Shown here: one piece after another, positions 1-27,393 of the stretch
How positions within the stretch are numbered: position 1 is the first letter of the stretch
Layout of the letters: every line of letters begins with the position of its first letter
Origin: Minisyncoccia bacterium
GTDB lineage: Bacteria > Patescibacteriota > Minisyncoccia > Phycocordibacterales > UBA918
Assembly: GCA_041742075.1 (NCBI GenBank)
Contig: JBGSJJ010000011.1
Coordinates: forward strand, 1-61,915
DNA: 61,915 bases
Direction of reading: 5' to 3'
Notes under the pieces: model-generated
What the model was told of the DNA's origin: nothing
The model's database searches: none
Seen by the model: only the letters and a program-made list of their open reading frames with translations
Program-made: the position numbers and the translations under genes

Positions 1-139
1 ACCAGACCTTGAACTACTACAACGAGCGAAGACTCCACTCCGCACTCAGGTTGTCGCCACGACAGTTTGCTGCTACACAACAACTCTAGTATTATCAAAA
101 GACTTTAGAAAAGGTGTGCCAAATTTGGGGTACCTTCCA
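1..139 (+). mobile_element. 3' end of an IS3-family insertion sequence (partial, runs off the window start). It carries the last codons of the DDE transposase OrfB (stop 87-89) and the terminal inverted repeat ending at 139.
   Basis: Translation from nt 3 gives QTLNYYNERRLHSALRLSPRQFAATQQL*, which parallels the C-terminus of the complete OrfB at 61122-61898 (INYYNQKRIHSALKLPPRLF). The terminal GGGGTACCTTCCA (127-139) is identical to the last 13 nt of the window. Confidence 0.8.
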
Positions 140-424
140 CTCACCATTGTTACCGGCAACCATAGTGTGGCAGAAATTCTTCATCGCGATTATTTCGATA
201 GACTAGCGAACCAGTACAGCAACGTAACAGTCACCTATGTTATCTCAGACAAAGCGCAGTCTGAGTATCCAACTGGGTATATTCAAGACCACATCGCCGG
301 CTATGATTTTTCTAACGCCGATATCTACATGTGCGGACAAGGAGTAGCTTGTACTGCACTAGAAACAGCAATCAAATCTAGTGATCCAAAAAACTCAAAT
401 TTTTTTGTGGAAGATTTCCACTAG
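140..424 (+). pseudogene. C-terminal fragment of an FNR-like FAD/NAD(P)-binding oxidoreductase, 5'-truncated by the IS3 insertion
   Basis: ORF 116-424 starts inside the IS end. The remainder (LTIVTGNHS...VTYVISD...GYIQDHI...DIYMCGQGVACTALETAI...FVEDFH) matches only the NAD-binding half of ferredoxin-reductase-type proteins. Confidence 0.55.
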
Positions 425-524
425 AAAAGATTTCTGATTTTTCAAAGTTTTCCCATCCTAGACGAGTCGCTCTATGTAGAACAAAATATCGTTGTTTTGA
501 CATTATTCGTGCTAGCACGAGTTG

Positions 525-551
525 GCTGGCAGTCTGGGACGATGTTAGAAC
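525..551 (+). repeat. 27-bp imperfect direct repeat, copy 1 (GCTGGCAGTCTGGGACGATGTTAGAAC)
   Basis: Matches 1295-1321 at 25 of 27 positions. The two copies bracket the two-ORF module 625-1225. Confidence 0.7.
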
Positions 552-624
552 CTATTTAAATATAATAATAGTTGAACCCGAACGTGCTCTATGCACATTC
601 GGGTTCATGAAACTAAATAGTCTA

Positions 625-924
625 TCAGGCGCAACCACTGCGGACTTCATGATCGCGCAAAATCGCAGCATCAGGATCAGGCTGGGTTCGTTTTTGGCCC
701 TCAATCTTTTCATCATACCGAAAGTACCAAGGTTCACTCGCTAACTCCTTGGAAACGTCAGACAATCGGGCAGATAATCCTTCTTTCCCTCGGCGATTGA
801 GATCATCACAAACGGCCTGCGGATCCTTACTACGCGGTCGAAGCCAACATACCATATTGTTCTGGCACGTAACCTTTATAACGTCGCCGTTTATGACAAG
901 AGCTACTTTGGGGTGGATTTTCAT
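625..924 (-). CDS. hypothetical protein (99 aa), visibly GC-richer than the flanks
   Basis: Intact ORF, followed by the hairpin GAACCCGAA...TTCGGGTTC (574-606). No recognisable motif. Confidence 0.45.
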   Translation of the reverse strand: MKIHPKVALVINGDVIKVTCQNNMVCWLRPRSKDPQAVCDDLNRRGKEGLSARLSDVSKELASEPWYFRYDEKIEGQKRTQPDPDAAILRDHEVRSGCA

Positions 925-946
925 TTGACTTACCTCTCCTAAAAGA

Positions 947-1225
947 TCAAAGACCCTCTTTATGGGTACGAGTGGCCCATAATAGGAATTCCGCTATTTC
1001 TCCCAGGCATACCTCTTCAAACAGACAATCATTGGCTGGAAAAAATGCATACTTTCGCCATTGCGGGTACCACTTCACGAGTCCCAACAAGTACCCACCT
1101 CTTTTGGCATTCACCTCCCAGACACAAGTCTTTTTATTGCTGGATTGCTCCGCATTAAAGTCAAAATTGATGTGTGTCCCAATCCAGGAGTCGTCATTTG
1201 ACGACTGAGCTGACATAAGTGGCAT
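947..1225 (-). CDS. hypothetical protein (92 aa)
   Basis: Intact ORF co-oriented with 625-924. No recognisable motif. Confidence 0.45.
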   Translation of the reverse strand: MPLMSAQSSNDDSWIGTHINFDFNAEQSSNKKTCVWEVNAKRGGYLLGLVKWYPQWRKYAFFPANDCLFEEVCLGEIAEFLLWATRTHKEGL

Positions 1226-1294
1226 AGAGTTCCCTCTTGGTACGTTGCATCTTATCTACTTATATCACAAAAACTTCTTTTTGGAAACAATTCT

Positions 1295-1321
1295 GCTGGC
1301 CGTCTGGGACGATATTAGAAC
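1295..1321 (+). repeat. 27-bp imperfect direct repeat, copy 2 (GCTGGCCGTCTGGGACGATATTAGAAC)
   Basis: Pairs with 525-551. Confidence 0.7.
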
Positions 1322-1391
1322 TTTTCTGAGAGTATAGAAATGAAAAGCCACCCAGGTGCAGATGGCTTTCCTGTGTGGCTAAGATTGACTG

Positions 1392-1844
1392 TTAGATTCG
1401 CGATTCGCGAAGCATACGCCAACGGTTGGCGATAAATTGACGAAGCGAGCGGAGGTCATTGCGAAGACCTCGTACGAACGACAGATCCTCAAAGTGACGC
1501 TTCGGGATCGGCAGCTGCTCGAAAGGAATACCGATGCGAGCATAGATGGCGTCGTAGAGGTCAATGAAGTCAGAGACGTCACTGCCCTCGATTGCAATCC
1601 TGTACATACGTCGACTGCCGTTGTCGAGCGTCTCGGTCACCCGAGCCTTGGCTCGTCCCATACTGAAGGTCCCGACGACTCCAGTCTGCTCCAAAATGGG
1701 TTTGGGAATGCTATGAAGGTACATTTCATCTCGGAGGCTCAAGATGTACTTTCCGCCTTCCAGGTCCACCGAGTCAAGAAGGAGGTTGCAGACAACCGGT
1801 CCGTGAGGAATGCCAGTCGAAGCGTTGATCGTCAGAATTTTCAT
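1392..1844 (-). CDS. hypothetical protein (150 aa from the ATG at 1844, MKILTINAS...)
   Basis: The ORF track extends to 1982, but that extension overlaps the tRNA-tail element and its promoter. The ATG at 1844 lies downstream of the TTGACA/TATATT promoter. A terminator hairpin AGCCAC...GTGGCTTTT follows at about 1343-1380. Confidence 0.5.
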   Translation of the reverse strand: MKILTINASTGIPHGPVVCNLLLDSVDLEGGKYILSLRDEMYLHSIPKPILEQTGVVGTFSMGRAKARVTETLDNGSRRMYRIAIEGSDVSDFIDLYDAIYARIGIPFEQLPIPKRHFEDLSFVRGLRNDLRSLRQFIANRWRMLRESRI

Positions 1845-1917
1845 GGAACTTCCCTTTCGGTCTGCCAGGAGTTTATCCTTGGTCAGGACGTAGGCGTGTC
1901 GACATTGACACCCAGTA

Positions 1918-1946
1918 AATATAACATATGTTAACACATATGTCAA
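1918..1946 (-). promoter_or_regulatory. sigma70-like promoter (TTGACA, 17-nt spacer, TATATT) immediately after the duplicated tRNA-Gln tail
   Basis: The minus strand reads cagcaagTTGACAtatgtgttaacatatgtTATATTtac. It points into ORF 1392-1844. Confidence 0.6.
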
Positions 1947-1950
1947 CTTG

Positions 1951-2083
1951 CTGCCGGTCAGGGAATCTCTCTTGTTACACAAGCAGTATACCTTTTGGCT
2001 ATATTTTCGCTACGCTCAATCTAGCTCAAAAGCTTTTCGAGCCCCTGACGCGAGTGACATATTAGTCACTCGCTATCTGGCAG
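1951..2083 (-). repeat. tRNA-tail mimic element, type 1 (Gln copy; candidate structured RNA)
   Basis: The minus strand reads, in order: CTGCCAG (anti-acceptor), hairpin GCGAGTGAC-taatat-GTCACTCGC, GTCAGGG (anti-T-stem), CTCGAAAAG, P2 CTTTTG...CAAAAG, GTATACTG, hairpin CTTG-TGTAA-CAAG, then CCCTGACCGGCAG. That last segment copies the tRNA-Gln 3' end with one change. Confidence 0.8.
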
Positions 2084-2126
2084 CTCTAAAGCAAAAATCC
2101 CCTATTCGGGGATTTTATGCTAAGAG

Positions 2127-2197
2127 CTGCCGATCAGGGACTCGAACCCCAATAGCTGGTACCAGAAACCAGAGTCCTACCATTAGACGAATCGGCA
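2127..2197 (-). tRNA. tRNA-Gln (anticodon CTG)
   Basis: Manual cloverleaf: acceptor TGCCGAT/ATCGGCA, anticodon stem CTGGT/ACCAG, loop TTCTGGT, T-loop TTCGAGT. It is followed by the terminator AAAATCCCC-gaat-AGGGGATTTT (plus-strand 2094-2116). Confidence 0.85.
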
Positions 2198-2452
2198 ATG
2201 TGGATATTTATAGCATACAGCCTTGGTAAAAGGAATTGCTTTTAGCTAAGTTGTCGAAAGAAAATAGTGCCAGCACGCTGGCACTAAATATGACCCGAAT
2301 TCTTCTTCTTTGGTTAAGCTTACCTAGCTCGTCGGAAACGTGTAGTTTCTGTTCATCAGGCCGTTTTTACCTCTTCAGGCAATCCGTAGCTATCCGAGAC
2401 CACTACCAAGTGAGTGCACTCTACAACAGAGTACTACTCGATACAAGTGACA

Positions 2453-3097
2453 CTAAGAGAGATGTCGGTCGTCATCAAACGTAACTACCTGCCAGTTACA
2501 CACTCCCTGTGTAGTCGCTTTTTGGCACTGTATGTGCGTAATACTACTGTTTTCAATTGAGGTAATTTTCAGAAAACGTAGCAGGGCCTTAACGTACGAT
2601 ATTGGCTTACCACTGCAAATATGCTCGACAAAAAAGTTAATAAAAACTGCATGTGAGACAACCACAATCCGGGCATCATCAGGATAGCTTTCGAGTATCG
2701 TTTTAGCTTCACCGATTCTTTCGAGAAGCGCTCGGTATGACTCGCCTCTTTTTTCATCTCGGAAAAAAGTGTTACCGGTCAGAAACCATCGTACGAGATA
2801 CACAATGGATGCCCATGAAAAATAATGTCGGTTATGAATCGACTCAGGACGAATAATTTCTACTACTGCCGGTTCTACTTCTACCACCAGGCCAGTTGCT
2901 TTTGCAATTGCCTCCGCAGTTTGTCTGGTACGAAAAAACGGACTGGTGATGAGGTGGGTCGGTTTATAGGAAACTAATACTTTAGCTACTGTTTCCGCCT
3001 GCTCTTGCCCTCGTTCATTAAGGGCCGAAGATGGTCGTTGGTGGATATGCAAACGATTCCCCTCCGTTTGTCCATGTCGTACAAAATAGATATCCAT
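2453..3097 (-). CDS. histidine phosphatase family protein (phosphoglycerate-mutase-like)
   Basis: N-terminal FVRHGQTEGN (RHG motif), SPFFRTRQTA, C-terminal VVSHAVF. Confidence 0.8.
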   Translation of the reverse strand: MDIYFVRHGQTEGNRLHIHQRPSSALNERGQEQAETVAKVLVSYKPTHLITSPFFRTRQTAEAIAKATGLVVEVEPAVVEIIRPESIHNRHYFSWASIVYLVRWFLTGNTFFRDEKRGESYRALLERIGEAKTILESYPDDARIVVVSHAVFINFFVEHICSGKPISYVKALLRFLKITSIENSSITHIQCQKATTQGVCNWQVVTFDDDRHLS

Positions 3098-3099
3098 AC

Positions 3100-3729
3100 T
3101 TATTCAGCGAAGTGTGCTTGGTCGTTAAAGGTATCAAGAAGCCAACGTTCCTTTTCGTCATTAAACTTTAAAACGGTTATACCGGTGTTAGCAGTATCAA
3201 AGCTATGCATCGAACTAAGCCATGCGTCAGGTGAAAGATTTTCTCCAAGAATCGTGTACATGACCATAAAAATAATCAGTCTGCCGTGCGTAATGGCGAG
3301 CACATCCCCTTCCAGGTCAGACATTGTCGCAAAAAGTTCACGTATACGTACAATGACATCATGAAAATTTTCTTCATCAGAAAAATGCCAGTCTGAGTTG
3401 TGAATATTTTCGTCAGCCAACCGTAGGTAGTTTTGAAACTCTTCACTTTTACGAGGTAGGCCAACAAATTCACTCGGTCGTTTTGTTTCCCTAAGAAGCG
3501 GAGTGTACTCAGGTTCAATTTGAATTTTTTCGAGCAGTGGCTCAACCGTTTGTTTGGTTCGATCATAATCACTGACGAGCAGATGACTAAATGAAAGATG
3601 TTGCAGACGATTCGCCAAAACGATTGCTTGGGCACGACCTGTGTCTGAAAGTTGACTACTTCCGTCTTGAAGTAAGTCACCTACATTTGAATCAGTTTGC
3701 CCATGGCGGACGAGATATACTCTTTTCAT
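3100..3729 (-). CDS. histidine phosphatase family protein (paralog of the neighbouring gene)
   Basis: LVRHGQTDSN, SDYDRTKQT, AITHGRL. Confidence 0.8.
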   Translation of the reverse strand: MKRVYLVRHGQTDSNVGDLLQDGSSQLSDTGRAQAIVLANRLQHLSFSHLLVSDYDRTKQTVEPLLEKIQIEPEYTPLLRETKRPSEFVGLPRKSEEFQNYLRLADENIHNSDWHFSDEENFHDVIVRIRELFATMSDLEGDVLAITHGRLIIFMVMYTILGENLSPDAWLSSMHSFDTANTGITVLKFNDEKERWLLDTFNDQAHFAE

Positions 3730-3734
3730 AGTAA

Positions 3735-4772
3735 TTATTTGTCTCCGAGTAAATCGACTAAGGCAATCTCAAGTGGTAGTTGTGGTAGGCTCATTTTTCC
3801 GGTCTGTTCGGCTGACTCAAGGAGACGAAGTAACATGGCGGAGTTGATAGGTGAAGCTTTTTCTTCAGCTAGCTTTTGTATCTGAGCTTGGTCAGCCTGA
3901 GAAAACGGTGCTAGCAAAAGCTCACTACGCGTTGGTGTATGTCTTAAAAGCATCACGGCGCGAACTCGCTCAAGTAAAAGCTTAATGAGTAGTTTAATGT
4001 CGACATTACTTTGTACTGCCTCCTCAAGTGACTGGAGTGCTGCGCCGAGGTCTTTGCTACCAAGCGCACCTAAAAGTCCTGCTAAACTAGAACTTTTTGG
4101 TGCGCCGATAATCCCCGCTACTTCGTCACTACTCCCGATTGTATCGGTTGAGGCCAAAATAACTTTTTGTAGCACTCCGAGTGCATCACGAAACGAGCCG
4201 TCGGCAGTGATAGCAATCAGGTCGGCTGCGTCAGGCGGCAGCGTAAAACCTTCACTTTTTGCCACGTCTATCACGTGCTCGGCCAGAACCGCTCGCCCGG
4301 GTGAACGAAACCGAAACACCTGACAACGGGAAAGAATAGTATCAAGGAGCTTCTCTTCTTCGGTAGTCGCTAGGATAAACACCACATGTGCTGGTGGTTC
4401 TTCAAGTGTTTTAAGGAGGGCATTAAATGCCTCCTTGGTGAGCATATGCACTTCGTCGATGATGTACACCTTCCGTTCACTTTGGTACGGCAGAGTGTGT
4501 ACCGCTTCACGGAGTTCACGAATATCATCAATCCCCCGATTACTCGCGGCATCAATCTCGTAGATGTCGACATCGCTCGTCCCGATAGCACTCGCAAAAA
4601 TTCGTGCTAACGTAGTTTTACCAGTTCCTCTCGTACCAGAAAACAGGATGGCGTGCGGGATTTTATTTTTCTTTATGGCTCCTTCGAGTACCGAGACAAT
4701 GTGTTCTTGGTTTCGGACCTGTGAGAAGGCACTCGGGCGATATTTTCGATAGAGTGCAGTGTATTCAGTCAT
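3735..4772 (-). CDS. dnaX: DNA polymerase III subunit gamma/tau (short form)
   Basis: Walker A GTRGTGKTT, IIDEVHMLT, sensor SRCQVFRF. Confidence 0.92.
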   Translation of the reverse strand: MTEYTALYRKYRPSAFSQVRNQEHIVSVLEGAIKKNKIPHAILFSGTRGTGKTTLARIFASAIGTSDVDIYEIDAASNRGIDDIRELREAVHTLPYQSERKVYIIDEVHMLTKEAFNALLKTLEEPPAHVVFILATTEEEKLLDTILSRCQVFRFRSPGRAVLAEHVIDVAKSEGFTLPPDAADLIAITADGSFRDALGVLQKVILASTDTIGSSDEVAGIIGAPKSSSLAGLLGALGSKDLGAALQSLEEAVQSNVDIKLLIKLLLERVRAVMLLRHTPTRSELLLAPFSQADQAQIQKLAEEKASPINSAMLLRLLESAEQTGKMSLPQLPLEIALVDLLGDK

Positions 4773-4816
4773 AGCTCAAACAGTATAACAAATCATTTAA
4801 GACCGTCACGTTTCAA

Positions 4817-5668
4817 CTACTTTAGTGTAGCCTGAACGTACTCCCGGAGTTCTTCGATGTCGGTTACCAGGTTTTCACTCCCTAAGACGATGTACCCAAA
4901 AGAGCGTTTATCTCCAGATACCTCTTCTTCAAAAATAACAGCTGCCGTCCTTCCGGCTTCGTGAGTGTACCCATGTTTCCCACCAGCATAGCCAGGGAGG
5001 TCTCTAAGCGGACTATTATTCATCCAGGTAGTTTGTGCGCCTACGTATTTAGTTAGTTTGGTGATATCAATTACATGTGGGTACTCATCATAAATAGCTT
5101 TAAGAATGATTGAAAGCGAACGAGCCGAAGATACGTTTCCGGACGAAAGTCCGGAGGCATCTGTGAAAGCAGTGTCGGCTATGCCGAGGGTAGAAACAAA
5201 TTCGTTCATAGCCGATGGCATATTTTTATTAAGTGTTCTCGCTTGGACTGATGACGCATCATTTGAAGACTCTAGTAAGGCTGGGAAAATAAGTTCGTTT
5301 AGTGTATAGGTATCTCCTACTTTTAGATGACCAGCTAAACCTTCAGTAGCTACGTCTGACTCTTGAATTCTAGTCTCAGTTTTCAAATCTGCTACTTTAT
5401 AGAATATCGTAGTACTGATAAGCTTTGTCACTGACGCAATCGGAAGTACTTTCTCTGACTGAAATGACACTACTTCATTACCACTTTCAAGTTCAAAAAC
5501 ATAGTACGCTGAAGCGCTGACAGTTGGCGCTTCGTGCATCACTTCAATAAGTGAAGCCGACTGGGCTTCCACACTGGTAACCGAAAGCGGGCTCGGTAAA
5601 ACGGCGAGGTAAAAAAATACCGCCAGTAAGCTGGCTCCGAGAGTGCCGATGAGAAGTATTTTGGGCAT
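4817..5668 (-). CDS. serine-type D-Ala-D-Ala carboxypeptidase (PBP5/S11-like)
   Basis: SxxK (ASVTKL), SxN (ESSND) and a KTG-like GKHGYT. The start was moved to MPKILLIG because the terminator hairpin at 5686-5710 overlaps the longer ORF. Confidence 0.8.
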   Translation of the reverse strand: MPKILLIGTLGASLLAVFFYLAVLPSPLSVTSVEAQSASLIEVMHEAPTVSASAYYVFELESGNEVVSFQSEKVLPIASVTKLISTTIFYKVADLKTETRIQESDVATEGLAGHLKVGDTYTLNELIFPALLESSNDASSVQARTLNKNMPSAMNEFVSTLGIADTAFTDASGLSSGNVSSARSLSIILKAIYDEYPHVIDITKLTKYVGAQTTWMNNSPLRDLPGYAGGKHGYTHEAGRTAAVIFEEEVSGDKRSFGYIVLGSENLVTDIEELREYVQATLK

Positions 5669-5735
5669 ATATCTATCATAACAAATGAGGGACGCCAAAG
5701 GCGTCCCTCATTTGCACTACTTGAAGTTCTACCAA

Positions 5736-6221
5736 CTACTTCTTGCTGACTGTCTTTTTTGCAACAGCTTTCGTGACGACTTTTTTCGCTGATGATTTTA
5801 CTACCGCTTTCTTGGCTGATGCTTTTTTAGCAGTTACTTTGGCAACTACTTTTTGTACGGCAGCCGCTTTCACTACTCCGCCTTTCATCAAATCTTGCCA
5901 ATTTGCCATCATCTCATTCTTAAAATCTTTGGCTTCTGCTTTTGATAGTTTTTGAACTTTTGTATAGGTATCAGTAACACCGTTTACAAGAGTACTGAAT
6001 TCCTCTTGAGTGATCTCTTTAGCGTTTTCAAGAGCCTCTAGCACTTCTGCCTTAGCCTTAAGTGACCAACTCTTTACCTTCTTGCGGTTCTTAGCTGCAT
6101 CCTTACTACCATACAGAAAATACGCGCCTGCGGCTGTCACCGCTGCCGCTGTAAGTCCGACTCCAATACTAAGTTTTTGGGCATTTGAAATTTCAACTTT
6201 TTTTGCTGGTTTTTTAGCCAT
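5736..6221 (-). CDS. Lys/Ala-rich protein with an N-terminal TM segment (hypothetical)
   Basis: Low-complexity AKK/KKA repeats at both ends and one hydrophobic helix. Confidence 0.55.
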   Translation of the reverse strand: MAKKPAKKVEISNAQKLSIGVGLTAAAVTAAGAYFLYGSKDAAKNRKKVKSWSLKAKAEVLEALENAKEITQEEFSTLVNGVTDTYTKVQKLSKAEAKDFKNEMMANWQDLMKGGVVKAAAVQKVVAKVTAKKASAKKAVVKSSAKKVVTKAVAKKTVSKK

Positions 6222-6241
6222 ACTATTTAAATTATTAGGAG

Positions 6242-6553
6242 TTAATCATCCTCGTCGGTTTTGGTTGTTCGTTTAGACCGAGCTCTACCTCTTGGAACAA
6301 AGAACCGTATAAGTTGTGAGACGAGACTTCCCTCCATCACGAAGGTTCGAAGTTGTGACACATCTTCAGCAATCATCTCACTTCCTGCTTCGAGCCGGTC
6401 GATAATCGAACGAATTTTTTTCACAATCTTTAGTACTTGATACAAAATCAAGCAGACAAGAATAGTGAGTACGACGATCCCAACACTTGCAATGAAGAAA
6501 AAAATGTTTGCTTGTAGTATCTCGCTCATACGTATTAGTGTACCAAGTATCAC
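6242..6553 (-). CDS. small membrane protein (hypothetical)
   Basis: One strong TM helix (FFFIASVGIVVLTILVCLILY) followed by an amphipathic tail. Confidence 0.55.
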   Translation of the reverse strand: MILGTLIRMSEILQANIFFFIASVGIVVLTILVCLILYQVLKIVKKIRSIIDRLEAGSEMIAEDVSQLRTFVMEGSLVSQLIRFFVPRGRARSKRTTKTDEDD

Positions 6554-6569
6554 AGCTCGTAGGAAACGT

Positions 6570-7613
6570 TTAGTTCAAATATTCGTGTACAATCCGTTCT
6601 ACCTCTCTTGCATCAGGTGCATCCATAAGCGTGGCCCGGAGTTCTGAAGCTCCCGGGAAGCCATTCACATATGCCTTGTAGTGTTTTTTCATTACTGCAA
6701 AATTTTTGTGTGGAAGTACGTCTTCAAAAAGTTTAGTGTGTTCGACCAATACCTTAAGCCGTTCAGGTAAGGAAATTATTTCAATATCGCTCGAGCTTGC
6801 TTCTGCTCCAGTCAGTCTCTCCGGTAAGCGCTTAGTTGGGTGAAAGAGCCAGGGGTTACCAAAAATTGCTCGTCCAAGCATTACTCCATCGGCACCAGTT
6901 TGTTCTGCTTTTGCTTTAGCGTCGTGAAGCGAAAGAGCGTCACCGTTGCCGATGATTCGCGTGGTACTACCAAGCTCATCTCTAAGTGTAACCACGCGCG
7001 CTACCCGTTCCCAACGCGCAGGAACTTTGCTCATCTCTTTTCGAGTGCGGGCATGGATAGTTAGTGCACTTGGGTTTTCAGCGAGTACCTCTGGTATCCA
7101 CTCCTCCACCTGGTCACGGTTATACCCGAGACGCGTCTTTACCGACACGGGGATACCGCCCTCATCACTCTTAGCGCCACGCTTCGCGGCCCGCACGATG
7201 GCCCTAGCAAGCGTAGGATTTTTAATCATCGCCGAGCCACAGCCCTGCTTTTCAATACTCCGGTCAGGGCACCCCATGTTGATATCGATACCGTCAAAAC
7301 CAAGCTCAAGACAAAGTTTGGCGGCTTGCTCCATGTACTCTTCGCTCGCAGAAAAAAGTTGCGCCACAATCGGTCGTTCCTCTTCACTATAGATAAGGTC
7401 AGCCATCAATTTCTGCTTTCCTTCGGGAGTCGCCCGCATGAGGCCATCCGCTGACACGAACTCAGTCCACATGACGTCTGGACCACCAATTGAACCATCA
7501 GCTCTCGTGTGAGCTGAATACTTCGCAATCATCTGCCGAAATGACGCGTCAGTCACGTCCGCCATCGGCGCAAGGACAAAGAATGGTTTTTTAAGCTGTT
7601 GCCAAAAAGACAT
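6570..7613 (-). CDS. dus: tRNA-dihydrouridine synthase
   Basis: LAPMADVTDASFR, DINMGCP, TIHARTR. Confidence 0.9.
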   Translation of the reverse strand: MSFWQQLKKPFFVLAPMADVTDASFRQMIAKYSAHTRADGSIGGPDVMWTEFVSADGLMRATPEGKQKLMADLIYSEEERPIVAQLFSASEEYMEQAAKLCLELGFDGIDINMGCPDRSIEKQGCGSAMIKNPTLARAIVRAAKRGAKSDEGGIPVSVKTRLGYNRDQVEEWIPEVLAENPSALTIHARTRKEMSKVPARWERVARVVTLRDELGSTTRIIGNGDALSLHDAKAKAEQTGADGVMLGRAIFGNPWLFHPTKRLPERLTGAEASSSDIEIISLPERLKVLVEHTKLFEDVLPHKNFAVMKKHYKAYVNGFPGASELRATLMDAPDAREVERIVHEYLN

Positions 7614-7662
7614 AGACGTTGTACTTTACTGGTAGAAGAAGATTCTGGCAAGGAGTAGCATT

Positions 7663-7917
7663 GTGAAAGACGCGAACATGCTCACACCCGAGGAGCTAAG
7701 AGAGAGGGCAAGTCACCGCCCCTTTTCACCGGAAGATAGAGCAATGATGGAGGATGCGGTTCGGAGATTAGCCGAAGTCGAAACGGAACTGGCCACCCTG
7801 AAAGTTGCCTCAGAAAATAAACCTTGGTTTAATTCGATGGAATTAATAGTAGCGGGGTATCTTCTATTTATTGCAATTTTCATGGGCATCTTCATTTGGT
7901 TCATGGTGAGGGCATAG
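7663..7917 (+). CDS. small C-terminally membrane-anchored protein (hypothetical)
   Basis: Coiled N-terminal part and a C-terminal TM helix (ELIVAGYLLFIAIFMGIFIWFMV). Confidence 0.5.
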   Translation: MKDANMLTPEELRERASHRPFSPEDRAMMEDAVRRLAEVETELATLKVASENKPWFNSMELIVAGYLLFIAIFMGIFIWFMVRA

Positions 7918-8017
7918 TAGATTGCTCCTCTACCCAAAAAGTTTCTTGAGCGCCAGGCTAACCGTCTGGTGCTTTTTTTATATACCTACAACAATGCAAA
8001 ATACGAACAGCGAATAC

Positions 8018-8983
8018 CTAGTTTGTACTTTCAGTTGTGGTACTCGCAGTTGTACTCCCCGTCTCACCAGACTGGACAATCGGTTCTTCATTTACAAACA
8101 CTTTGTCTCCAAACCGAAGGTCAATGTATTGAAAATTTCCAGGCTCTAGATGCTCAAACTCGCTCGAACTAAGTATCGTTTTTAAATTGCTATAACTGTC
8201 CGCAAACGACTTCGTCTGCGAAACTTTAATCATTCCACCACCCGCTAGAGTAAACTCAAGGTCATACGTTCCGCGCGAATGCACATGGGTTATGAACAAA
8301 CCAAGCTCACGCTCAACGTCTTCTACAAACACTCTGGCTTCGCGTAAAAAAGTACTCGGGAAAACGGATTGACCAAGCTGTGGTTCAGCTTCATCTTTAA
8401 GAAAACGGAGGAGGGCGTTACCAGACAGTTGCGGTGCTACGCCAAACGCATAGCCAACATTGTCGATAAATAGACACGTCTCATCATTTTTCTCCTGACA
8501 CCAAAGTGCGTATGGTTCAAACTCCGTAAACGTAACAATGAGTGTCCTCCCGTCTCTTAAAAGTGCTACCTCCTTCAGTCGAGGAAAGGTCTTAAGGGTG
8601 GCAATCATGTGCTCTTCTGGGTACAGCCATAAAAACCGCCTGGGAATGAGTCTGAAGTATTCACCAGACATTTCTTCTTCTACTACCTGAGTGACCGCTT
8701 CGTGAGAAATAGTAAACCCACCAACCACTTCCACTCGTTCAAGTTGAAAAGAATTAATCCTCGTGACATACCAGGTCGCCGTCATTAAAAGACCTACACC
8801 AAGTAAAAGTACTCCGCCAAATATCAGTTGTCTCTGTAGTGGTGAAAGTATAAAACGACGCTTTTTTTGCGCTCGGGTTTTGGGAGACGAAATTCTCGGA
8901 CCAACAGCCATAGGTTTGTCTATGGTAGCACATGGAAATATACAAAAGCGGGACGGCCTAAGCCGTCCCGCTTTTGTGGCCAC
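8018..8983 (-). CDS. ftsQ: FtsQ/DivIB-like cell division protein (POTRA domain). The true start may be the internal Met at 8911.
   Basis: TM helix followed by VERVEVVGG...LKEVALLRDGRTLIVTFTEFEPYALWC, a typical POTRA pattern. Confidence 0.7.
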   Translation of the reverse strand: MATKAGRLRPSRFCIFPCATIDKPMAVGPRISSPKTRAQKKRRFILSPLQRQLIFGGVLLLGVGLLMTATWYVTRINSFQLERVEVVGGFTISHEAVTQVVEEEMSGEYFRLIPRRFLWLYPEEHMIATLKTFPRLKEVALLRDGRTLIVTFTEFEPYALWCQEKNDETCLFIDNVGYAFGVAPQLSGNALLRFLKDEAEPQLGQSVFPSTFLREARVFVEDVERELGLFITHVHSRGTYDLEFTLAGGGMIKVSQTKSFADSYSNLKTILSSSEFEHLEPGNFQYIDLRFGDKVFVNEEPIVQSGETGSTTASTTTESTN

Positions 8984-10246
8984 TTAGGCAATCAAGTCTT
9001 TTCCGAAGTATGGGCGAAGTGCTTCCGGCACCACAACCGTACTATCTGCTTGCTGGAAGTTTTCAATCAGTGACACCAAGATACGCGGTGTCGGAATAGC
9101 GGTACAGTTAAGCGAGTGGGCGTAGCGCATCTTCCCTTCAGCGTCTTTATAGCGGATATTGAAACGCCTTGTCTGGAAGTCATGAAAGTACGAAGCAGAA
9201 CTAATTTCTCGATACTTGCCTTCAAGTGGTACCCAAAGTTCGATGTCGTACTTCTTCACCTGACCCTGGCCAATGTCTCCTCCGCAGTTCAGTACGGTGT
9301 GGTACGGAATACCGAGTGATTCAATAAACTCTTCGGTGTTGCGGTTGATTTCTTCATGCAAACGCACTGACGTCTCGTGTGAAGCTTCACAAAGCACCAC
9401 TTGCTCAACTTTGAAAAACTCATGGACGCGGATAAGTCCCTTGGTGTCTTTACCATGACTTCCCGCTTCCCGCCTATAGCAAGGTGAAAACGCTAAGTGC
9501 TTAATCGGAAACGCTGACTCAGGAATGATATCGTCAGCGTAATAGCCCATAGTAGAGACTTCACTGGTACCAATCAGGTAATCATTGTCTTGCGTGTTAT
9601 AAACATCTTCGGCATCATTTGGCAGGTGGCCCGTACCATAGAGGTTACTCTTGCGCACAATAGTGGGACCAAGCATTGGAGAAAAGCCCTTCTTGTCCCA
9701 AAACGCATTGGCGTAGTTCCAGATAGCCCAAGAAAGACGAGCTCCGTCACCGATTAAATAATAGCCTCGGAAGCCGTGCACCTTGGTACCGCGGTCAAAG
9801 TCAACCATCTTGAGTTTGGTCATGAGTTCAACATGGTCCTTCGGCGTGAAGCTGAAGTTTGGCTTCTCTCCCCACACCTTCACCTCTTCGTTATCAGCAT
9901 CACTGTCGCCATCGGGAACCGACATATCAGGAATGTTTGGCACCTGGAGCATCAGCGTCTGCCACTCCTCCATCACTGGCTTTAGTTTTTCCTCATCAGT
10001 TTGGATTTCAGTTTTTAACTGCTGCATTTCCGCAATCAGTTGATGACGAATAGCGCTATCACTCGCTCCGGCAATTTCGGTAGAGACTTTGTTCTGCTCA
10101 GCTTTTTTTGTCTCGAGCGAAGACATGATTTCTCGTCGTTCTTCGTCGAGTGTCATGAGTCGATCAAGGTCAACCTTGATTTTCTTTTTTGTTGCCGCCA
10201 TCTTCACGATGTCGAGATTTTCCCTGATGAATTTGATATCGAGCAT
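8984..10246 (-). CDS. serS: seryl-tRNA synthetase
   Basis: N-terminal coiled-coil arm (MLDIKFIREN...), class II core (FSPCYRREAGSHGKDTKGLIRVHEF, GQGQ). Confidence 0.95.
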   Translation of the reverse strand: MLDIKFIRENLDIVKMAATKKKIKVDLDRLMTLDEERREIMSSLETKKAEQNKVSTEIAGASDSAIRHQLIAEMQQLKTEIQTDEEKLKPVMEEWQTLMLQVPNIPDMSVPDGDSDADNEEVKVWGEKPNFSFTPKDHVELMTKLKMVDFDRGTKVHGFRGYYLIGDGARLSWAIWNYANAFWDKKGFSPMLGPTIVRKSNLYGTGHLPNDAEDVYNTQDNDYLIGTSEVSTMGYYADDIIPESAFPIKHLAFSPCYRREAGSHGKDTKGLIRVHEFFKVEQVVLCEASHETSVRLHEEINRNTEEFIESLGIPYHTVLNCGGDIGQGQVKKYDIELWVPLEGKYREISSASYFHDFQTRRFNIRYKDAEGKMRYAHSLNCTAIPTPRILVSLIENFQQADSTVVVPEALRPYFGKDLIA

Positions 10247-10400
10247 AGTAGGTAAATATTATAGTTATCTATTATACACAAGCCTCTCATACAATCTAGG
10301 TAGTGCAAACACAGAAATTAATTCTACCTATCATTAATGATAGGTAGCAATTTTGTCGATAGTTTCTTTGCCAAGGCCTTAGAAATGATACAATTTCAAA

Positions 10401-11285: not shown

Positions 11286-11327
11286 CATATATATGTAGAG
11301 GTAGTATTTGTATCAGGACTACTCTCT

Positions 11328-13694: not shown

Positions 13695-13725
13695 TATTTC
13701 TCAAATCACATAATGGACGCAAAAA

Positions 13726-13746
13726 GGGTCGCGCGCTGCGCGACCC
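13726..13746. terminator. bidirectional GC hairpin between topA and ORF 13776-13988
   Basis: GGGTCGCGC-gctg-CGCGACCC. Confidence 0.6.
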
Positions 13747-13775
13747 TACCCTTCTCCTCACAATGTATTGAATCC

Positions 13776-13988: not shown

Positions 13989-14052
13989 GATGGTGGCTCC
14001 TGTTATATGTACTTCATCTCCTTAGATGAACTCAATTTATAGCATATATAAT

Positions 14053-17377: not shown

Positions 17378-17440
17378 AAATTGACAAGTCGTAATTAATG
17401 GTGAATCGGGAGGCACAGCTTTTTTGCTAAAAAAAGCGTT

Positions 17441-24382: not shown

Positions 24383-24440
24383 CAAAATTTGGTAGAAAAC
24401 AGTAATCTGACTTAATAATCGCAGTTCTAACCTCTAGCAG

Positions 24441-24490
24441 TCCTGTGCACTTTTTAAAAACGAGCATCCACATTTGTGGGTGCCGTTTTT
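24441..24490 (+). repeat. Degenerate copy of the tRNA-Tyr tail plus downstream TTTTTAAAA and a terminator hairpin
   Basis: TCCTGTGCACTTTTTAAAAA compares with TCCTTCTCGGCGCACTTTTTAAAA at the tRNA, followed by GCATCCACA-ttt-GTGGGTGC and TTTTT. Confidence 0.6.
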
Positions 24491-24494
24491 ATTA

Positions 24495-24630
24495 GTGTGC
24501 CGAGAGTGAGTGACTCAATGTCACTCACGTAAAGATTCGAAAACCTTGCCTACTATTTTATGACGTTAGGAAATAAAATAGTGACAAGGTGTACTGAAGC
24601 TGTAAGCTTCGAAACTCCTTCTCGGCGCAC
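24495..24630 (+). repeat. tRNA-tail mimic element, type 1 (Tyr copy)
   Basis: GTGTGCCGAGA (anti-acceptor), hairpin GTGAGTGAC-tcaat-GTCACTCAC, GATTCGAAAA, P2 ACCTTG...CAAGGT, GTGTACTGA, hairpin GAAGC-TGTAA-GCTTC, then CGAAACTCCTTCTCGGCGCAC. Confidence 0.85.
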
Positions 24631-24635
24631 ATAAC

Positions 24636-24664
24636 TTGACAATACACTAGAAATGGTGTATTGT
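24636..24664 (+). promoter_or_regulatory. sigma70-like promoter (TTGACA, 17-nt spacer, TATTGT) 6 nt after the duplicated tail
   Basis: TTGACA 24636-24641, TATTGT 24659-24664. It points at ORF 24847-25236. Confidence 0.55.
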
Positions 24665-24846
24665 TTTGCATAAATCTAATCAGTATGGAGTCTGCTATGA
24701 GGTATCCCAGATAGCGGCTTCGGCTGCTTATTTTGTTCTTTTTCTTTCAAAAATCAAACCGCAACCCGCTCCCTATCAAATTCGTGATGGACCGCGTTCG
24801 GCCATAACCGCCGACCACCCATAACGAAGAAAGCTAGGAGCACAAC

Positions 24847-25236
24847 ATGAAGAAGCGTAACGAACATGGTCTGACTCAAAGTCAGGTTCGCAGGTTAGCG
24901 AATATTCTTTTGGAACTCCAGGGTGCACTCGAATCAGTGCGCAATGGGAACGGAACAACCGCCGACGTAGAGCAGTGGAAGAAACCCCTGTTCGAAAGAA
25001 CATCAGCGATTCTGGGTGAAAACCTAACGCGATACCATCAGACCATTGCCGCCCTCAGGCGACATGGAATCGTGGACGAGTTTCAGGAAGAAGCTGACCG
25101 AGAGGAAGCCGTGAAGCGTGATTTCAGGATGAGGCGTGCCGAACGATTCGGTCTCCCCTACGACTCCAAAGATAGCGCTTTCCTGGATAGGTACGAAGCG
25201 GAAGCAAATTGGCTCGACCAGTACGGTTCAAGCTAA
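24847..25236 (+). CDS. hypothetical protein (129 aa), visibly GC-richer
   Basis: Intact ORF with AGGAG 6 nt upstream. A hairpin and T-run follow at about 25271-25300. Confidence 0.5.
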   Translation: MKKRNEHGLTQSQVRRLANILLELQGALESVRNGNGTTADVEQWKKPLFERTSAILGENLTRYHQTIAALRRHGIVDEFQEEADREEAVKRDFRMRRAERFGLPYDSKDSAFLDRYEAEANWLDQYGSS

Positions 25237-25329
25237 TCGTAACCTCAATTATCAACAAGTCGTCACTCAAACGGAAAAGACCGTTTGGAGGGACGGCTTT
25301 TTCTATTGCCTCCTCACCACACAAAAGTG

Positions 25330-25354
25330 TCGAACCAGCTCCATCCCGGCGCAC
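25330..25354 (+). repeat. Further copy of the tRNA-Tyr tail (TCGAACCAGCTCCATCCCGGCGCAC) followed by TTTTAAAAAA and a terminator
   Basis: Same tail + TTTTAAAA + hairpin organisation as at 23612-23675 and 24441-24490. Confidence 0.6.
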
Positions 25355-26059: not shown

Positions 26060-26264
26060 AAGGTTCGAACCTTCTCCAATCTATACAGATTCCTTACAGG
26101 AACTGTCCACTCATTGGACCTTATGTTTCGCTTCACTTACAAAAGTTCCTCAATGAGTCTTGCGACAAGCTCCCAGCTTGTCTCACTATTCAGGTTGTAT
26201 GATATTTTTGCAAAATATCGACAACTTCTTGCGACAGTTTCCCAAACTGTCTCACCCGGCGCAC
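26060..26264 (+). repeat. tRNA-Tyr T-arm copy, two tandem type 2 modules and an acceptor-tail copy
   Basis: AAGGTTCGAACCTTCTCC; then CCTTACAGGAACTGT, P2 ACTCATTG...CAATGAGT, CTTGCGA, hairpin CAAGCT-ccc-AGCTTG and TCTCA; then hairpin TTGTATGATATTTT/AAAATATCGACAA, CTTGCGA, hairpin CAGTTT-ccc-AAACTG, TCTCA and CCCGGCGCAC. Confidence 0.75.
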
Positions 26265-26267
26265 TAC

Positions 26268-26298
26268 TTGACAAACTCCTTAAATAGTGTATTATAAT
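26268..26298 (+). promoter_or_regulatory. sigma70-like promoter (TTGACA ... TATTATAAT) 4 nt after the duplicated tail
   Basis: TTGACA 26268-26273. TATTAT 26290-26295 overlaps TATAAT 26293-26298. It points at the glycoside hydrolase gene. Confidence 0.55.
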
Positions 26299-26364
26299 GA
26301 AAATTCCTTCTGCCGTGAAATATTTGTCCTCACACAACGTCTTCGAACGGAATTGGTAATAACT

Positions 26365-27393
26365 ATGTCAAAATCGCTTAAAATCACCCTTTTTATCGTG
26401 CTTCTCTCAGCTTTAATAGCGGGGTCATTTTTTGTATGGATTAATTCCCTTAAAGCCGAACCGGGCGATATTGTCTGGGGAGTCACCTTCTCAGACAGCC
26501 AAGCCGAGTACCTAGGACTTAATGCAGACGAAACCTACTCGGCAATCATTAACGATCTTGGGGCTAAGCAGATTAAACTCCATGTCAACTGGAACGCAAC
26601 CGAACCAGAAGCTGGCGTACTTGATTTCAAGACTCTTGATAGACGCGTAAAAGAAGCCGAGGCAAACGATGTGAAGCTTATTATCGTTATTGGTATGAAA
26701 ACTGGGCGTTGGCCAGAATGCCACACTCCAGAGTGGTTTATGGATGTTCCTACAGACGAGCGTCAGGATATAGTGATTCAATATGTGCGCACCATAGTGG
26801 GAAGGTACCACGACTCTAAAGCAATTGAATACTGGCAAATCGAAAACGAACCGTTTCTTCAGTTCGGTACCTGTCCAAAGTGGTATTACGACCAAGGCAC
26901 AACTATGCTTGAAGCGGAAGTTGCTGCGGTACGTTCACTTGACCCAGCTCGTAAGATAATTGTTTCTGAGTCTGGTGAGCTTTCGACCTGGACCAAGGCA
27001 GCGGGTATTGCTGACGTAGTCGGAGTGACTATGTATCGTAGCAGTTGGGACGCTACAGAAAAAACGTTCGGTATCAATCCTTACACTTTCCTCGCGCCAG
27101 AATTTTACTCAGCCAAGTCAGCCTTCATTGAAAATACCTACGGCAAGCCGGTCTTTAGTATAGAACTGCAGGCAGAGCCCTGGGCTTCTCGTGGCCTGGC
27201 TGACGCCAGTCTGGCAGAACAAGACCAATCGATGAACGTCGAACTTTTCAAAGAGAATATCGAATTTGCGAGGGAAGCCGGACTTGATGCCTACTATTTT
27301 TGGGGAGCAGAGTGGTGGTACTGGATGAAGGTAAAACACAACCAACCAGAAATCTGGAACCATGCACAAGAATTGTTTACAGAGCAAAACTAG
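26365..27393 (+). CDS. membrane-anchored clan GH-A (GH5-like) glycoside hydrolase
   Basis: N-terminal TM anchor (MSKSLKITLFIVLLSALIAG), acid/base motif WQIENEP, and a later ELQAEPW. Confidence 0.65.
   Translation: MSKSLKITLFIVLLSALIAGSFFVWINSLKAEPGDIVWGVTFSDSQAEYLGLNADETYSAIINDLGAKQIKLHVNWNATEPEAGVLDFKTLDRRVKEAEANDVKLIIVIGMKTGRWPECHTPEWFMDVPTDERQDIVIQYVRTIVGRYHDSKAIEYWQIENEPFLQFGTCPKWYYDQGTTMLEAEVAAVRSLDPARKIIVSESGELSTWTKAAGIADVVGVTMYRSSWDATEKTFGINPYTFLAPEFYSAKSAFIENTYGKPVFSIELQAEPWASRGLADASLAEQDQSMNVELFKENIEFAREAGLDAYYFWGAEWWYWMKVKHNQPEIWNHAQELFTEQN

What the first reader, a model, noticed from the sequence alone, without database searches (positions are those of the whole stretch)
1918..1963. 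Outward-facing TTGACA promoters sit 4-7 nt after the duplicated tRNA tails and drive accessory ORFs
A TTGACA hexamer follows the duplicated tail directly in four places.
- Gln copy (minus strand): ...CCGGCAGcaagTTGACA, 17-nt spacer, TATATT. This reads into ORF 1392-1844.
- Tyr type 1 copy: ...GGCGCACataacTTGACA, 17-nt spacer, TATTGT. This reads into ORF 24847-25236.
- Tyr type 2 copy: ...GGCGCACtacTTGACA, 16-nt spacer, TATTAT. This reads into the GH gene.
- Leu-CAA copy 1: ...GAGGCACaaaTTGACAagtcgtaattAATGGTG, which resembles the Tyr version TTGACAatacactagaAATGGTG.
A near-consensus -35 recurring at a fixed distance from the tail suggests the tail boundary doubles as an expression platform for whatever lies downstream.
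Basis: partly seen in the sequence, partly recalled or inferred. Interest (0 to 1): 0.62.

Follow-up and report, generated by a model that had tools for sequence, protein, structure and literature searches.

The report
Promoter-headed gene cassettes behind tRNA genes
The TTGACA boxes just after spare copies of tRNA gene ends look like real promoters, and they form the standard front end of small mobile gene cassettes stacked behind tRNA genes in an ultra-small (CPR) bacterium, so each inserted gene brings its own on-switch.

Summary
TTGACA lies 3-5 nt after a tRNA-tail copy at four places in the window. About 0.016 such cases are expected by chance, and TTGACA is itself under-represented. Three of the four are complete sigma-70-type promoters and are the three best-scoring promoter-like sites in window 1-40000. 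The Leu-CAA case is a truncated stub.

The promoter is not a property of the tail or of the hairpin mini-element. None of the other 11 tail copies in this genome has TTGACA within 10 nt; most are followed by terminators. The promoter is the first feature of a discrete gene cassette:
- a 2-6 nt linker;
- TTGACA, a 17-nt spacer, then TAnnnT, often with the spacer filled by an 8-12 bp inverted repeat;
- a leader and a cargo ORF that is usually an orphan or accessory gene;
- a terminator;
- a ~30-nt tRNA-tail-like end.

The ORF129 cassette recurs whole in four other contigs with different neighbours. The glycosidase gene keeps its promoter in nine genomes, and homology begins exactly at TTGACA. 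One promoter type (TTGACAATACACTA-N4/5-TAGTGTATTRT) precedes at least 10 unrelated genes behind tRNA-Tyr tails in relatives (13 pattern hits against 0 in the control).

The parts
2126..2197 (-). tRNA-Gln(CTG) gene, anchor of the Gln array
   Evidence: ARAGORN; Rfam tRNA, 50.7 bits
1950..2125 (-). Hairpin mini-element behind tRNA-Gln: terminator, anti-tail, conserved core GGTATACTG plus a GTAA hairpin, then the tail copy at 1950-1967
   Evidence: Sequence; homologous to Gln loci of relatives
1918..1949 (-). Head of Gln cassette A: linker AAG; -35 TTGACA at 1941-1946; spacer holding the inverted repeat ACATATGT-GTTA-ACATATGT (1924-1943); -10 TATATT at 1918-1923, preceded by TG
   Evidence: 11/12, best site in window 1-20000; palindrome arm of 8 bp; hairpin -10.6 kcal/mol, z = -4.9
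1392..1844 (-). Cargo ORF150, an orphan with no Pfam hit. Its 5'UTR (1845-1911) has AAAGGGAAG just upstream of the ATG
   Evidence: No homologue in 150 family genomes. One 49%-identical homologue was found, and its 5'UTR also matches this one
1295..1371 (-). Terminator (1342-1371) and the 27-nt tail-like end of cassette A (1295-1321, GTTCTAATATCGTCCCAGACGGCCAGC)
   Evidence: The same end sequence punctuates Gln arrays in G528 and G546
525..1294 (-). Gln cassette B: a weak TTGTTT/palindrome/TGTGATATAAG head, ORF92 (947-1225), ORF99 (625-924), a terminator (573-607) and the end-tail (525-551). The native flank follows at 501-524
   Evidence: In relative G546:C55 the native flank CAAYTCGTGC..AGCAC directly follows a tail
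17378..17416 (+). Promoter stub behind Leu-CAA tail copy 1: AAA, then TTGACAAGTCGTAATTAATGGTG, then AAT and the partial tail CGGGAGGCAC. There is no -10. It looks like the remnant of a deleted cassette
   Evidence: It is absent from the promoter list
24440..24630 (+). Partial tail plus terminator (24440-24490) and the mini-element ending in Tyr tail copy 1 (24608-24630)
24631..24664 (+). Head of the ORF129 cassette: linker ATAAC; -35 TTGACA at 24636-24641; inverted repeat ACAATACAC (24639-24647) / GTGTATTGT (24656-24664) around a GAAA-containing loop; -10 TATTGT at 24659-24664
   Evidence: 10/12; 9-bp arms; -14.1 kcal/mol, z = -5.3; conserved in 4 homologous cassettes and in front of unrelated cargo
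24665..25354 (+). Body of the ORF129 cassette: leader with a 5-codon mini-ORF (24697-24714) overlapping a hairpin plus U-run (24713-24743); ORF129 (24847-25236); terminator (25281-25296); end-tail AAAAGTGTCGAACCAGCTCCATCCCGGCGCAC (25323-25354)
26062..26264 (+). Tyr tail copy split by nested inverted element(s): 5' half GGTTCGAACCTTCTCC (26062-26077) and 3' half CCCGGCGCAC (26255-26264)
26265..27393 (+). Glycosidase unit: linker TAC; -35 at 26268-26273; -10 TATTAT at 26290-26295; 69-nt leader; glycoside-hydrolase-like ORF (ATG at 26365, stop at 27393)
   Evidence: 11/12; Pfam Glyco_hydro_10/42. It is an accessory paralogue present in about 10% of the genus, and its promoter is conserved there

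Best explanation
The TTGACA hexamers are the -35 boxes of working sigma-70-type promoters. These promoters form the standardised 5' 'head' of small mobile gene cassettes. The cassettes accumulate in arrays behind tRNA genes in this ~1 Mb Paceibacteria (Kaiserbacteria-like) genome and its genus.

A cassette reads as follows:
- a 2-6 nt A/C-rich linker;
- TTGACA, 16-18 nt, then TAnnnT, with the spacer often filled by an 8-12 bp inverted repeat;
- a leader with a Shine-Dalgarno site;
- usually one cargo ORF, mostly an orphan;
- an intrinsic terminator;
- a ~30-nt 'foot' that ends in the last 8-10 nt of the tRNA.

Cassettes enter at, or recombine through, the tail. The head therefore always lies a few bases after some tail copy. 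That copy can be the tRNA gene's own tail, the tail of a hairpin mini-element, or the foot of the preceding cassette. The near-constant spacing is thus a consequence of where cassettes start.

The promoter makes each cassette transcriptionally self-sufficient. This is needed because everything upstream (the tRNA, a mini-element or an earlier cassette) ends in a terminator.

Shown here: the sites, their enrichment, their recurrence in relatives, conservation of whole cassettes with changing neighbours, one head type before many unrelated cargos, and co-orientation with the cargo.

Inferred: that transcription starts there, that insertion is site-specific recombination at the tail, and which enzyme does it. 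The two unlinked tyrosine recombinases are candidates only.
For: 1. Enrichment and quality.
- 4 of 15 tail copies have TTGACA at +3 to +5, against 0.016 expected.
- The three complete sites are the top-scoring promoter-like sites of window 1-40000.

2. Recurrence.
- In 150 family genomes, about 9 further cases of mini-element tail, 4-6 nt, then TTGACA-N17-TAnnnT were found, with Tyr, Gln, Asn and other tails (24 hits against 7 in the control).
- CGGCGCAC-N0-12-TTGACA gives 13 hits against 0 in the control across 101 genus genomes.

3. The cassette is a unit.
- ORF129 homologues (60-84% identity) sit in 4 other contigs. Linker, promoter, leader, ORF, terminator and end-tail are all conserved, while the left and right neighbours differ.
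- The accessory glycosidase keeps TTGACAAAnnCCnnTAAATAGTGTTATAAT in 9 genomes. Upstream similarity ends at TTGACA. The promoter follows a Tyr tail in 3 of them.

4. One head, many cargos.
- Among 10 Tyr-array units, pairwise identity is 0.28 at -40..-21.
- It is 1.0 at TTGACA and 0.82/0.69 across the spacer and -10.
- It falls to 0.33 and then 0.25 right after the -10.
- The ORFs are unrelated by BLASTP and co-oriented wherever an ORF could be called.

5. In the nine Tyr arrays, nearly every tail is followed either by a terminator or by a TTGACA promoter. The promoter also follows a real tRNA-Tyr gene (G482b) and a real tRNA-Gln gene (G528).

6. Other TTGACA/TGnTAnnnT sites in this genome look like ordinary promoters, and its tRNA genes carry TGCTATnAT extended -10 boxes. 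This supports sigma-70-type recognition in this organism.
Against:
- The promoter of ORF150 could not be compared: its only homologue lies on a 544-bp contig cut just before the promoter.
- Many heads are also strong hairpins followed by U-rich runs, so part of the conservation may serve another function.
- The head is shared by unrelated cargos, which would also fit a platform that stays put while the cargo is swapped.
- No recombinase is linked to the arrays, and no circular or empty-site form was seen.
- At class level (400 genomes) the mini-element-anchored pattern gave 19 hits against 5 in the control, and most hits did not look like the element. The arrangement may therefore be confined to this family.
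Confidence: 0.7

Rival explanations
1. Platform reading. The tail plus promoter is a resident expression platform, comparable to an integron's Pc/attI. Promoterless cargo is captured downstream of it, with the exchange point just after the -10.
For: - The same 45-nt tail-linker-promoter junction precedes at least 10 unrelated ORFs.
- Identity falls to background immediately after the -10.
Against: - The head moves with its cargo. In the ORF129 cassette, the leader and ORF stay attached to the same head in 5 contigs at different array positions.
- The glycosidase carries its head into loci without any tail.
- Arrays hold one head per cassette, not one per array.
- Most tails have no head.
Confidence: 0.15
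2. The TTGACA...TAnnnT palindrome is primarily a structural site. It could be a recombination hairpin or recombinase-binding site at the cassette junction. It could also be an intrinsic terminator that insulates the cassette from upstream read-through. On this view its likeness to a promoter is secondary.
For: - 7 of 15 tail-adjacent heads have perfect 7-9 bp inverted repeats, against 1 of 43 other TTGACA promoters in the genome.
- Predicted stems reach 12 bp, at -11 to -18 kcal/mol and z = -5 to -8, and are often followed by TTTT.
- Arm changes between homologues are compensatory or top-strand G-T wobbles.
Against: - TTGACA, the 16-18 nt spacing and TAnnnT persist where the hairpin is lost: the glycosidase head, G475 and G488.
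- TTG lies outside most stems yet is present in every head-type unit seen.
- Each head is followed by a co-oriented ORF with a Shine-Dalgarno site.
- A dual role is not excluded.
Confidence: 0.1
3. The promoters make short antisense RNAs aimed at the neighbouring tRNA-like mini-element. Earlier notes of this scan describe such pairs in other CPR genomes.
For: - The Tyr head is followed after about 45-75 nt by a hairpin plus U-run, so a short RNA is possible.
- Earlier notes e1-1043365 and e1-4354118 report tRNA-like element plus TTGACA promoter plus antisense RNA.
Against: - Duplex energies between the predicted 5' transcripts and the upstream element or the tRNA are no better than shuffles for the Tyr and glycosidase heads (z between -0.65 and +0.3).
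- The Gln leader against its own mini-element was borderline: z = -1.86, and 14 of 300 shuffles paired at least as well.
- In all five ORF129 cassettes the leader continues into a conserved protein gene.
Confidence: 0.03
4. Coincidence: these are ordinary promoters of downstream resident genes that happen to lie near tail copies in a compact genome.
For: Intergenic regions are short, and the glycosidase promoter is also found away from tails in other genomes.
Against: - Poisson P is about 3e-9 in this genome.
- The pattern gives 13 hits against 0 in the control across the genus.
- The downstream genes are orphan or accessory genes, not resident core genes.
Confidence: 0.02

Closest known systems
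Integron gene cassettes (attC) expressed from the platform promoter Pc
   Same: - Arrays of small, mostly single-gene units of unrelated function.
- Each unit is bounded by a conserved recombination-type end.
- Conserved ends combine with unique cargo.
   Different: - Here every cassette carries its own consensus promoter at its 5' edge. Integron cassettes are mostly promoterless (general knowledge).
- The 3' end imitates a tRNA tail and is not an attC with a GTTRRRY core.
- The array is anchored on a tRNA gene, not on intI/attI.
- No linked integrase was found.
Tandem genomic islands at tRNA genes (Islander-type islands, PMC4383910; tycheposons of Prochlorococcus, bioRxiv 10.1101/2020.12.28.424599)
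   Same: - Inserts are flanked by partial tRNA copies.
- Successive integrations push older elements further from the tRNA.
- Degenerate remnants are present.
   Different: - The units here are 0.65-1.2 kb and hold a single gene without an integrase.
- The paper's text never mentions a promoter, so no standard promoter head at the junction is described there.
- Here 100-180 bp hairpin mini-elements share the same sites.
Cis-mobilisable elements and site-specific accretion (CIMEs of streptococcal ICESt1/ICESt3; general knowledge)
   Same: - Elements bounded by att repeats and lacking their own recombinase.
- Accumulation in tandem at the 3' end of a gene.
   Different: CIMEs are decayed integrative conjugative elements (ICEs). 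They have no conserved promoter head in front of unrelated single genes.
Repeat elements with outward-facing promoters (Neisseria Correia elements; IS elements such as ISEcp1; general knowledge)
   Same: A strong promoter at the edge of a mobile unit switches on the adjacent gene.
   Different: - There the promoter lies inside the repeat and reads outward into host genes.
- Here it lies outside the repeated mini-element, is absent from most copies, and reads into the cassette's own cargo.

Membership tests
Sigma-70 (housekeeping) type promoter | -35 hexamer close to TTGACA | tested here: met
   Exact TTGACA at 1941-1946(-), 17381-17386, 24636-24641 and 26268-26273
Sigma-70 (housekeeping) type promoter | 16-18 bp spacer followed by a -10 hexamer TAnnnT | tested here: met
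   Met at three sites: 17 nt/TATATT, 17 nt/TATTGT and 16 nt/TATTAT. Not met at the Leu-CAA stub (AATCGG)
Sigma-70 (housekeeping) type promoter | Co-oriented downstream gene with a ribosome-binding site at a sensible distance | tested here: met
   ATG lies 73, 182 (32 to the leader mini-ORF) and 69 nt after the -10. All callable cargo ORFs in relatives are co-oriented
Sigma-70 (housekeeping) type promoter | Hexamers conserved between homologous loci while the flanks diverge | tested here: met
   Glycosidase loci, ORF129 cassettes, Tyr-array units
Sigma-70 (housekeeping) type promoter | Mapped transcription start 6-9 nt after the -10 | not testable with these tools
Integron cassette / attC | Promoterless ORF expressed from the platform promoter Pc | tested here: not met
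   Each cassette has its own head promoter, and several heads occur per array
Integron cassette / attC | attC: imperfect inverted repeat with RYYYAAC / GTTRRRY cores at the cassette's 3' end | tested here: not met
   The 3' ends are AAAAGTGTCGAACC...CGGCGCAC (Tyr) and AAAAGTTCTAAYATCGTCCCAGAYGGCCAGC (Gln). They are tRNA-tail-like and have no GTTRRRY core
Integron cassette / attC | Adjacent intI integrase and attI | tested here: not met
   The only two PF00589 hits lie on other contigs (C4:71853 and C16:84785)
tRNA-gene integrating island (Islander type / tycheposon) | Insert flanked by direct repeats of the tRNA 3' end | tested here: met
tRNA-gene integrating island (Islander type / tycheposon) | Element-encoded integrase next to the att site | tested here: not met
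   The cargo ORFs have no integrase domain, and the recombinase genes are unlinked
Repeat element with outward-facing promoter (Correia / IS type) | Promoter lies inside the repeated element's terminal sequence | tested here: not met
   Most mini-element copies end in tail plus terminator. The promoter occurs after real tRNA genes and after cassette end-tails without any mini-element

The most novel reading that the evidence does not exclude
Kaiserbacteria-like CPR bacteria may run an integron-like gene-capture system. In it, every cassette carries a standard ~45-nt head and a tRNA-tail-like foot. Head and foot would together make the recombination site in the excised form.

The head would be one sequence with three roles:
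- a consensus promoter for the cassette's own cargo;
- a hairpin terminator that insulates the cassette from upstream read-through;
- the structured recognition site for a recombinase acting in trans.
Probability: 0.2. Interest if true: 0.8.

Novelty: new variant of a known kind. Interest (0 to 1): 0.58.

Why it matters
CPR/Patescibacteria have tiny genomes and few recognisable mobile elements, so how they acquire and express new genes is poorly understood. This finding gives a concrete, testable anatomy for that process.

- Single orphan genes are packaged between a standard strong promoter and a tRNA-tail-like end, and are stacked behind tRNA genes.
- The cassette boundaries are now defined to within a few bases.
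- This tells experimenters which ~45-nt pieces to test as portable promoters or insulators for these uncultivated lineages.
- It also gives a search key (tail, short linker, TTGACA) for finding accessory genes and the missing recombinase.
- The promoter itself is ordinary. What is unusual is its standardisation across unrelated cargo and its position flush with the recombination junction.

Tried and rejected
- Promoter as part of the hairpin mini-element: rejected. Most copies lack it, and it occurs without the element.
- Pure cargo promoter with no shared module: revised. One head type precedes at least 10 unrelated ORFs.
- Antisense sRNA against the tRNA-like element: no convincing complementarity.
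- Rfam: only tRNAs reach gathering thresholds. In 24400-26500 the only weak hit is ctRNA_p42d-like, 26 bits.
- Class-wide pattern scan of 400 genomes: 19 hits against 5 in the control, and most were not elements.
- Homologues of ORF150 and ORF129 in 150 and 100 relatives: none.
- ORF150 in the 5.8-billion protein set: one homologue, on a 544-bp contig cut before the promoter.
- Pfam on 13 cargo proteins: only Glyco_hydro_10/42 (the glycosidase), HNH_5, and a below-cutoff Nuc_deoxyri_tr2 hit; no regulators. The palindromes are therefore unlikely to be operators for the cassette's own product.
- Genome-contig scan with ORF129: nothing found.

Full report
**Setting**

The window is contig C11 of a 995,925-bp, 16-contig genome rated 99.9% complete. 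Its close relatives carry names such as Candidatus Kaiserbacteria, Paceibacterota and Patescibacteria group.

The window holds nine tRNA genes. Most are followed by a terminator and a 100-180 bp structured mini-element. The mini-element ends in a copy of the tRNA's last ~20 nt, here called the tail. Other agents of this scan have already described those elements. This report deals with what lies just after the tails.

**Observation**

TTGACA follows a tail copy after 3-5 nt at four places:
- Gln copy: tail 1950-1967 on the minus strand, TTGACA at 1941-1946.
- Leu-CAA copy 1: tail ends at 17377, TTGACA at 17381.
- Tyr copy 1: tail ends at 24630, TTGACA at 24636.
- A Tyr tail whose 3' half is 26255-26264: TTGACA at 26268.

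Three of these have a 16-17 nt spacer and a TAnnnT -10 box. They are the three best promoter-like sites in window 1-40000, scoring 11/12, 11/12 and 10/12.

The Leu-CAA site has no -10. After 23 nt it runs into a partial tail and a second mini-element, so it is a stub.

Its 5' half (26062-26077) is split from the 3' half by nested inverted elements.

**Is it chance?**

- TTGACA is depleted in the window: 23 found against 44 +/- 6 expected.
- It occurs 353 times on both strands of the genome.
- Fifteen clear tail copies lie within 3.5 kb downstream of their own tRNA. About 0.016 would have TTGACA at offsets 2-7 by chance. Four do (P about 3e-9).
- Only 46 sites in the genome fit TTGACA-N16-18-TAnnnT, and three of them abut tails.
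- None of the other 11 tail copies has TTGACA within 10 nt. Most are followed by a hairpin and a T-run.

**Relatives**

- A pattern anchored on the mini-element core (GTRTACWG-N25-55-TTGACA-N16-18-TAnnnT) gave little across 400 genomes of the class: 19 hits against 5 in the control, most of them not elements.
- In 150 genomes of the family it gave 24 hits against 7. About nine of these are further clear cases behind Tyr, Gln, Asn and other tails, each with a different downstream ORF.
- The Tyr tail end followed by TTGACA (CGGCGCAC-N0-12-TTGACA) gave 13 hits against 0 in the control across 101 genus genomes.
- In a 60-genome sample, most mini-element tails are followed by terminators and only a few percent by TTGACA.

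**Whose promoter is it?**

Three lines of evidence show that it belongs to the inserted gene unit.

1. *The glycosidase gene (26365-27393).* It is an accessory paralogue found in about 10% of the genus at 61-70% identity. A 37%-identical core paralogue is present in nearly every genome.
   - In nine genomes it keeps the promoter TTGACAAAnnCCnnTAAATAGTGTTATAAT.
   - The sequence upstream of TTGACA is unrelated between loci.
   - In three loci that upstream sequence is a Tyr-type tail.
2. *ORF129 (24847-25236).* It has no homologue in 100 genus genomes. It has 60-84% identical homologues on four metagenome or NCBI contigs.
   - In all of them the whole stretch is conserved: linker, TTGACA(A/G)TA(C/T)ACTA-N4-TAGTGTAT..., leader, ORF, terminator and a ~32-nt end AAAGTTGTCGAACCAACTCCAnCTCGGCGCAC.
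   - The sequence to the left varies: a mini-element tail in some contigs, the end of another cassette in one, and in one contig the unit follows a mini-element behind tRNA-Tyr.
   - The sequence to the right also differs.
   - The cassette here is therefore 24631-25354.
3. *The Gln locus.* Two cassettes (1295-1949 and 525-1294) each end in the 27-nt repeat GTTCTAAYATCGTCCCAGACNGCCAGC.
   - The same repeat punctuates Gln arrays in G528 and G546.
   - The native flank that follows the last repeat here (501-524) follows a tail directly in G546.
   - In G528 a TTGACA promoter sits 3 nt after the real tRNA-Gln gene.

**A shared head**

The promoter is more than each gene's private promoter.
- In nine Tyr arrays, nearly every tail is followed either by a terminator or by TTGACA.
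- The TTGACA units occur after a real tRNA-Tyr gene (G482b), after mini-element tails, and after cassette end-tails.
- Their ORFs show no similarity to each other apart from the glycosidase, and are co-oriented with the promoter wherever an ORF could be called.

Ten of thirteen units share one promoter type, TTGACAATACACTA-N4/5-TAGTGTATTRT. Anchored pairwise identity among them is:
- 0.28 at -40..-21;
- 0.48 over the tail's 3' part;
- 0.60 in the linker;
- 1.0 at TTGACA;
- 0.82 and 0.69 across the spacer and -10;
- 0.33 and then 0.25 from the first base after the -10.

Cassettes therefore have a standard ~45-nt head and a standard ~30-nt foot around unique cargo.

**Hairpin in the head**

- Seven of 15 tail-adjacent heads contain perfect 7-9 bp inverted repeats running from the -35 into the -10. 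Among the other 43 TTGACA promoters of this genome, one does.
- Folded as single strands, they form stems of up to 12 bp with 4-nt loops (GAAA, UAAA, UUUU). Energies are -11 to -18 kcal/mol, with z = -5 to -8. Many are followed by TTTT.
- Differences between homologous heads are compensatory (ACACTA/TAGTGT against CCCTA/TAGGG) or top-strand G-T wobbles.
- The hexamers and the spacing persist where the hairpin is lost (the glycosidase head, G475, G488). Promoter function therefore seems to be the constant feature, and the hairpin an added and unexplained one.
- The hairpin may be an insulator terminator or a recombination structure.

**Other checks**

- Native tRNA promoters in this genome have TGCTATnAT extended -10 boxes. 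Many of the 46 TTGACA sites look like ordinary promoters. Sigma-70-type recognition is therefore plausible for this organism.
- The cargo proteins are almost all without Pfam hits. None is a recognisable DNA-binding protein or integrase.
- The genome's two tyrosine recombinases lie on other contigs.
- An antisense-RNA role suggested by earlier notes on other CPR genomes was tested. It found no convincing support: z was between -0.65 and +0.3, except the Gln leader against its own mini-element, at z = -1.86.
- No read data could be obtained.

**Verdict**

- These are very probably working promoters that drive accessory genes, and the tail-promoter junction is a recurring module.
- But the module is the front end of each mobile cassette. 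It is not a property of the tail or of the mini-element.
- The closest known systems are integron cassettes and tandem tRNA-gene islands such as tycheposons (PMC4383910). This system differs in three ways. Its units are single genes without an integrase. Each unit has its own promoter. One promoter head is standardised across unrelated cargo and sits flush with the junction.

Noticed in passing
window 24697-24743 (+): The leader of the ORF129 cassette holds a 5-codon mini-ORF (MRYPR*) preceded by GGAG. Its stop codon overlaps a hairpin plus U-run. The mini-ORF (MRYxR/K*) and the hairpin are conserved in the four homologous cassettes. This looks like a translation-coupled attenuator.
   Followed up: partly
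window 24638-24667 (+), 1921-1945 (-), and heads in L072, L074, L080-L084: Promoter spacers form stems of up to 12 bp with 4-nt loops, followed by T-runs. Changes between homologues are compensatory or G-T wobbles on the top strand. This hints at a role as RNA or single-stranded DNA in addition to the promoter role.
   Followed up: partly
window 25455-25544 (+): A promoter-like site (TTGATC, 16 nt, TATAAT at 25455-25482) is followed by a weak ctRNA_p42d-like match (25499-25544; 26 bits, E = 0.007). The match overlaps the 3' end of the NYN-domain gene (25515-26021, minus strand) on the opposite strand.
   Followed up: no
window 26078-26254: One or two inverted copies of a second element type split a Tyr tail copy into its T-arm half and its acceptor half. 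This type has hairpins GACAAGCT-CCC-AGCTTGTC and GACAGTTT-CCC-AAACTGTC, and a TGTAAG loop on the minus strand.
   Followed up: partly
window 525-551 and 1295-1321 (-), 25323-25354 (+): Cassette 3' ends share the form AAAAGT(G/T)TC(G/T)AAC..., then about 10 nt, then the tRNA's last 8-10 nt. This is a T-loop-like mimic that differs from the host tRNA's own T-arm. The same ends recur in Gln and Tyr arrays of other genomes.
   Followed up: partly
window 1845-1911 (-) and L089:1-65: The only homologue of ORF150 is 49% identical in protein, yet its 5'UTR aligns closely with this one by eye. The leader may be more constrained than the coding sequence.
   Followed up: no
G000:C4:25054-25100, G000:C4:90121-90170 and other tRNA 3' flanks: Several tRNA terminators are long palindromes. 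In them the tRNA tail, the terminator hairpin and an anti-tail form one continuous inverted repeat (for example GGGCGGAC-AAATTAAAAACACCC...GGGTGTTTTTAATTT-GTCCGCCC).
   Followed up: no
whole window and genome: TTGACA is under-represented: 23 against 44 expected in the window, and 353 in the genome against a median of 438 for permutations of the same hexamer. tRNA genes use TGCTATnAT extended -10 promoters with weak -35 boxes.
   Followed up: partly
G000:C15:23331-33171: Seven strong TTGACA-N16-18-TAnnnT sites cluster within 10 kb. Two of them are divergent, starting at 31633(-) and 31751(+). This may be another cassette-rich region, though no tRNA lies next to it.
   Followed up: no
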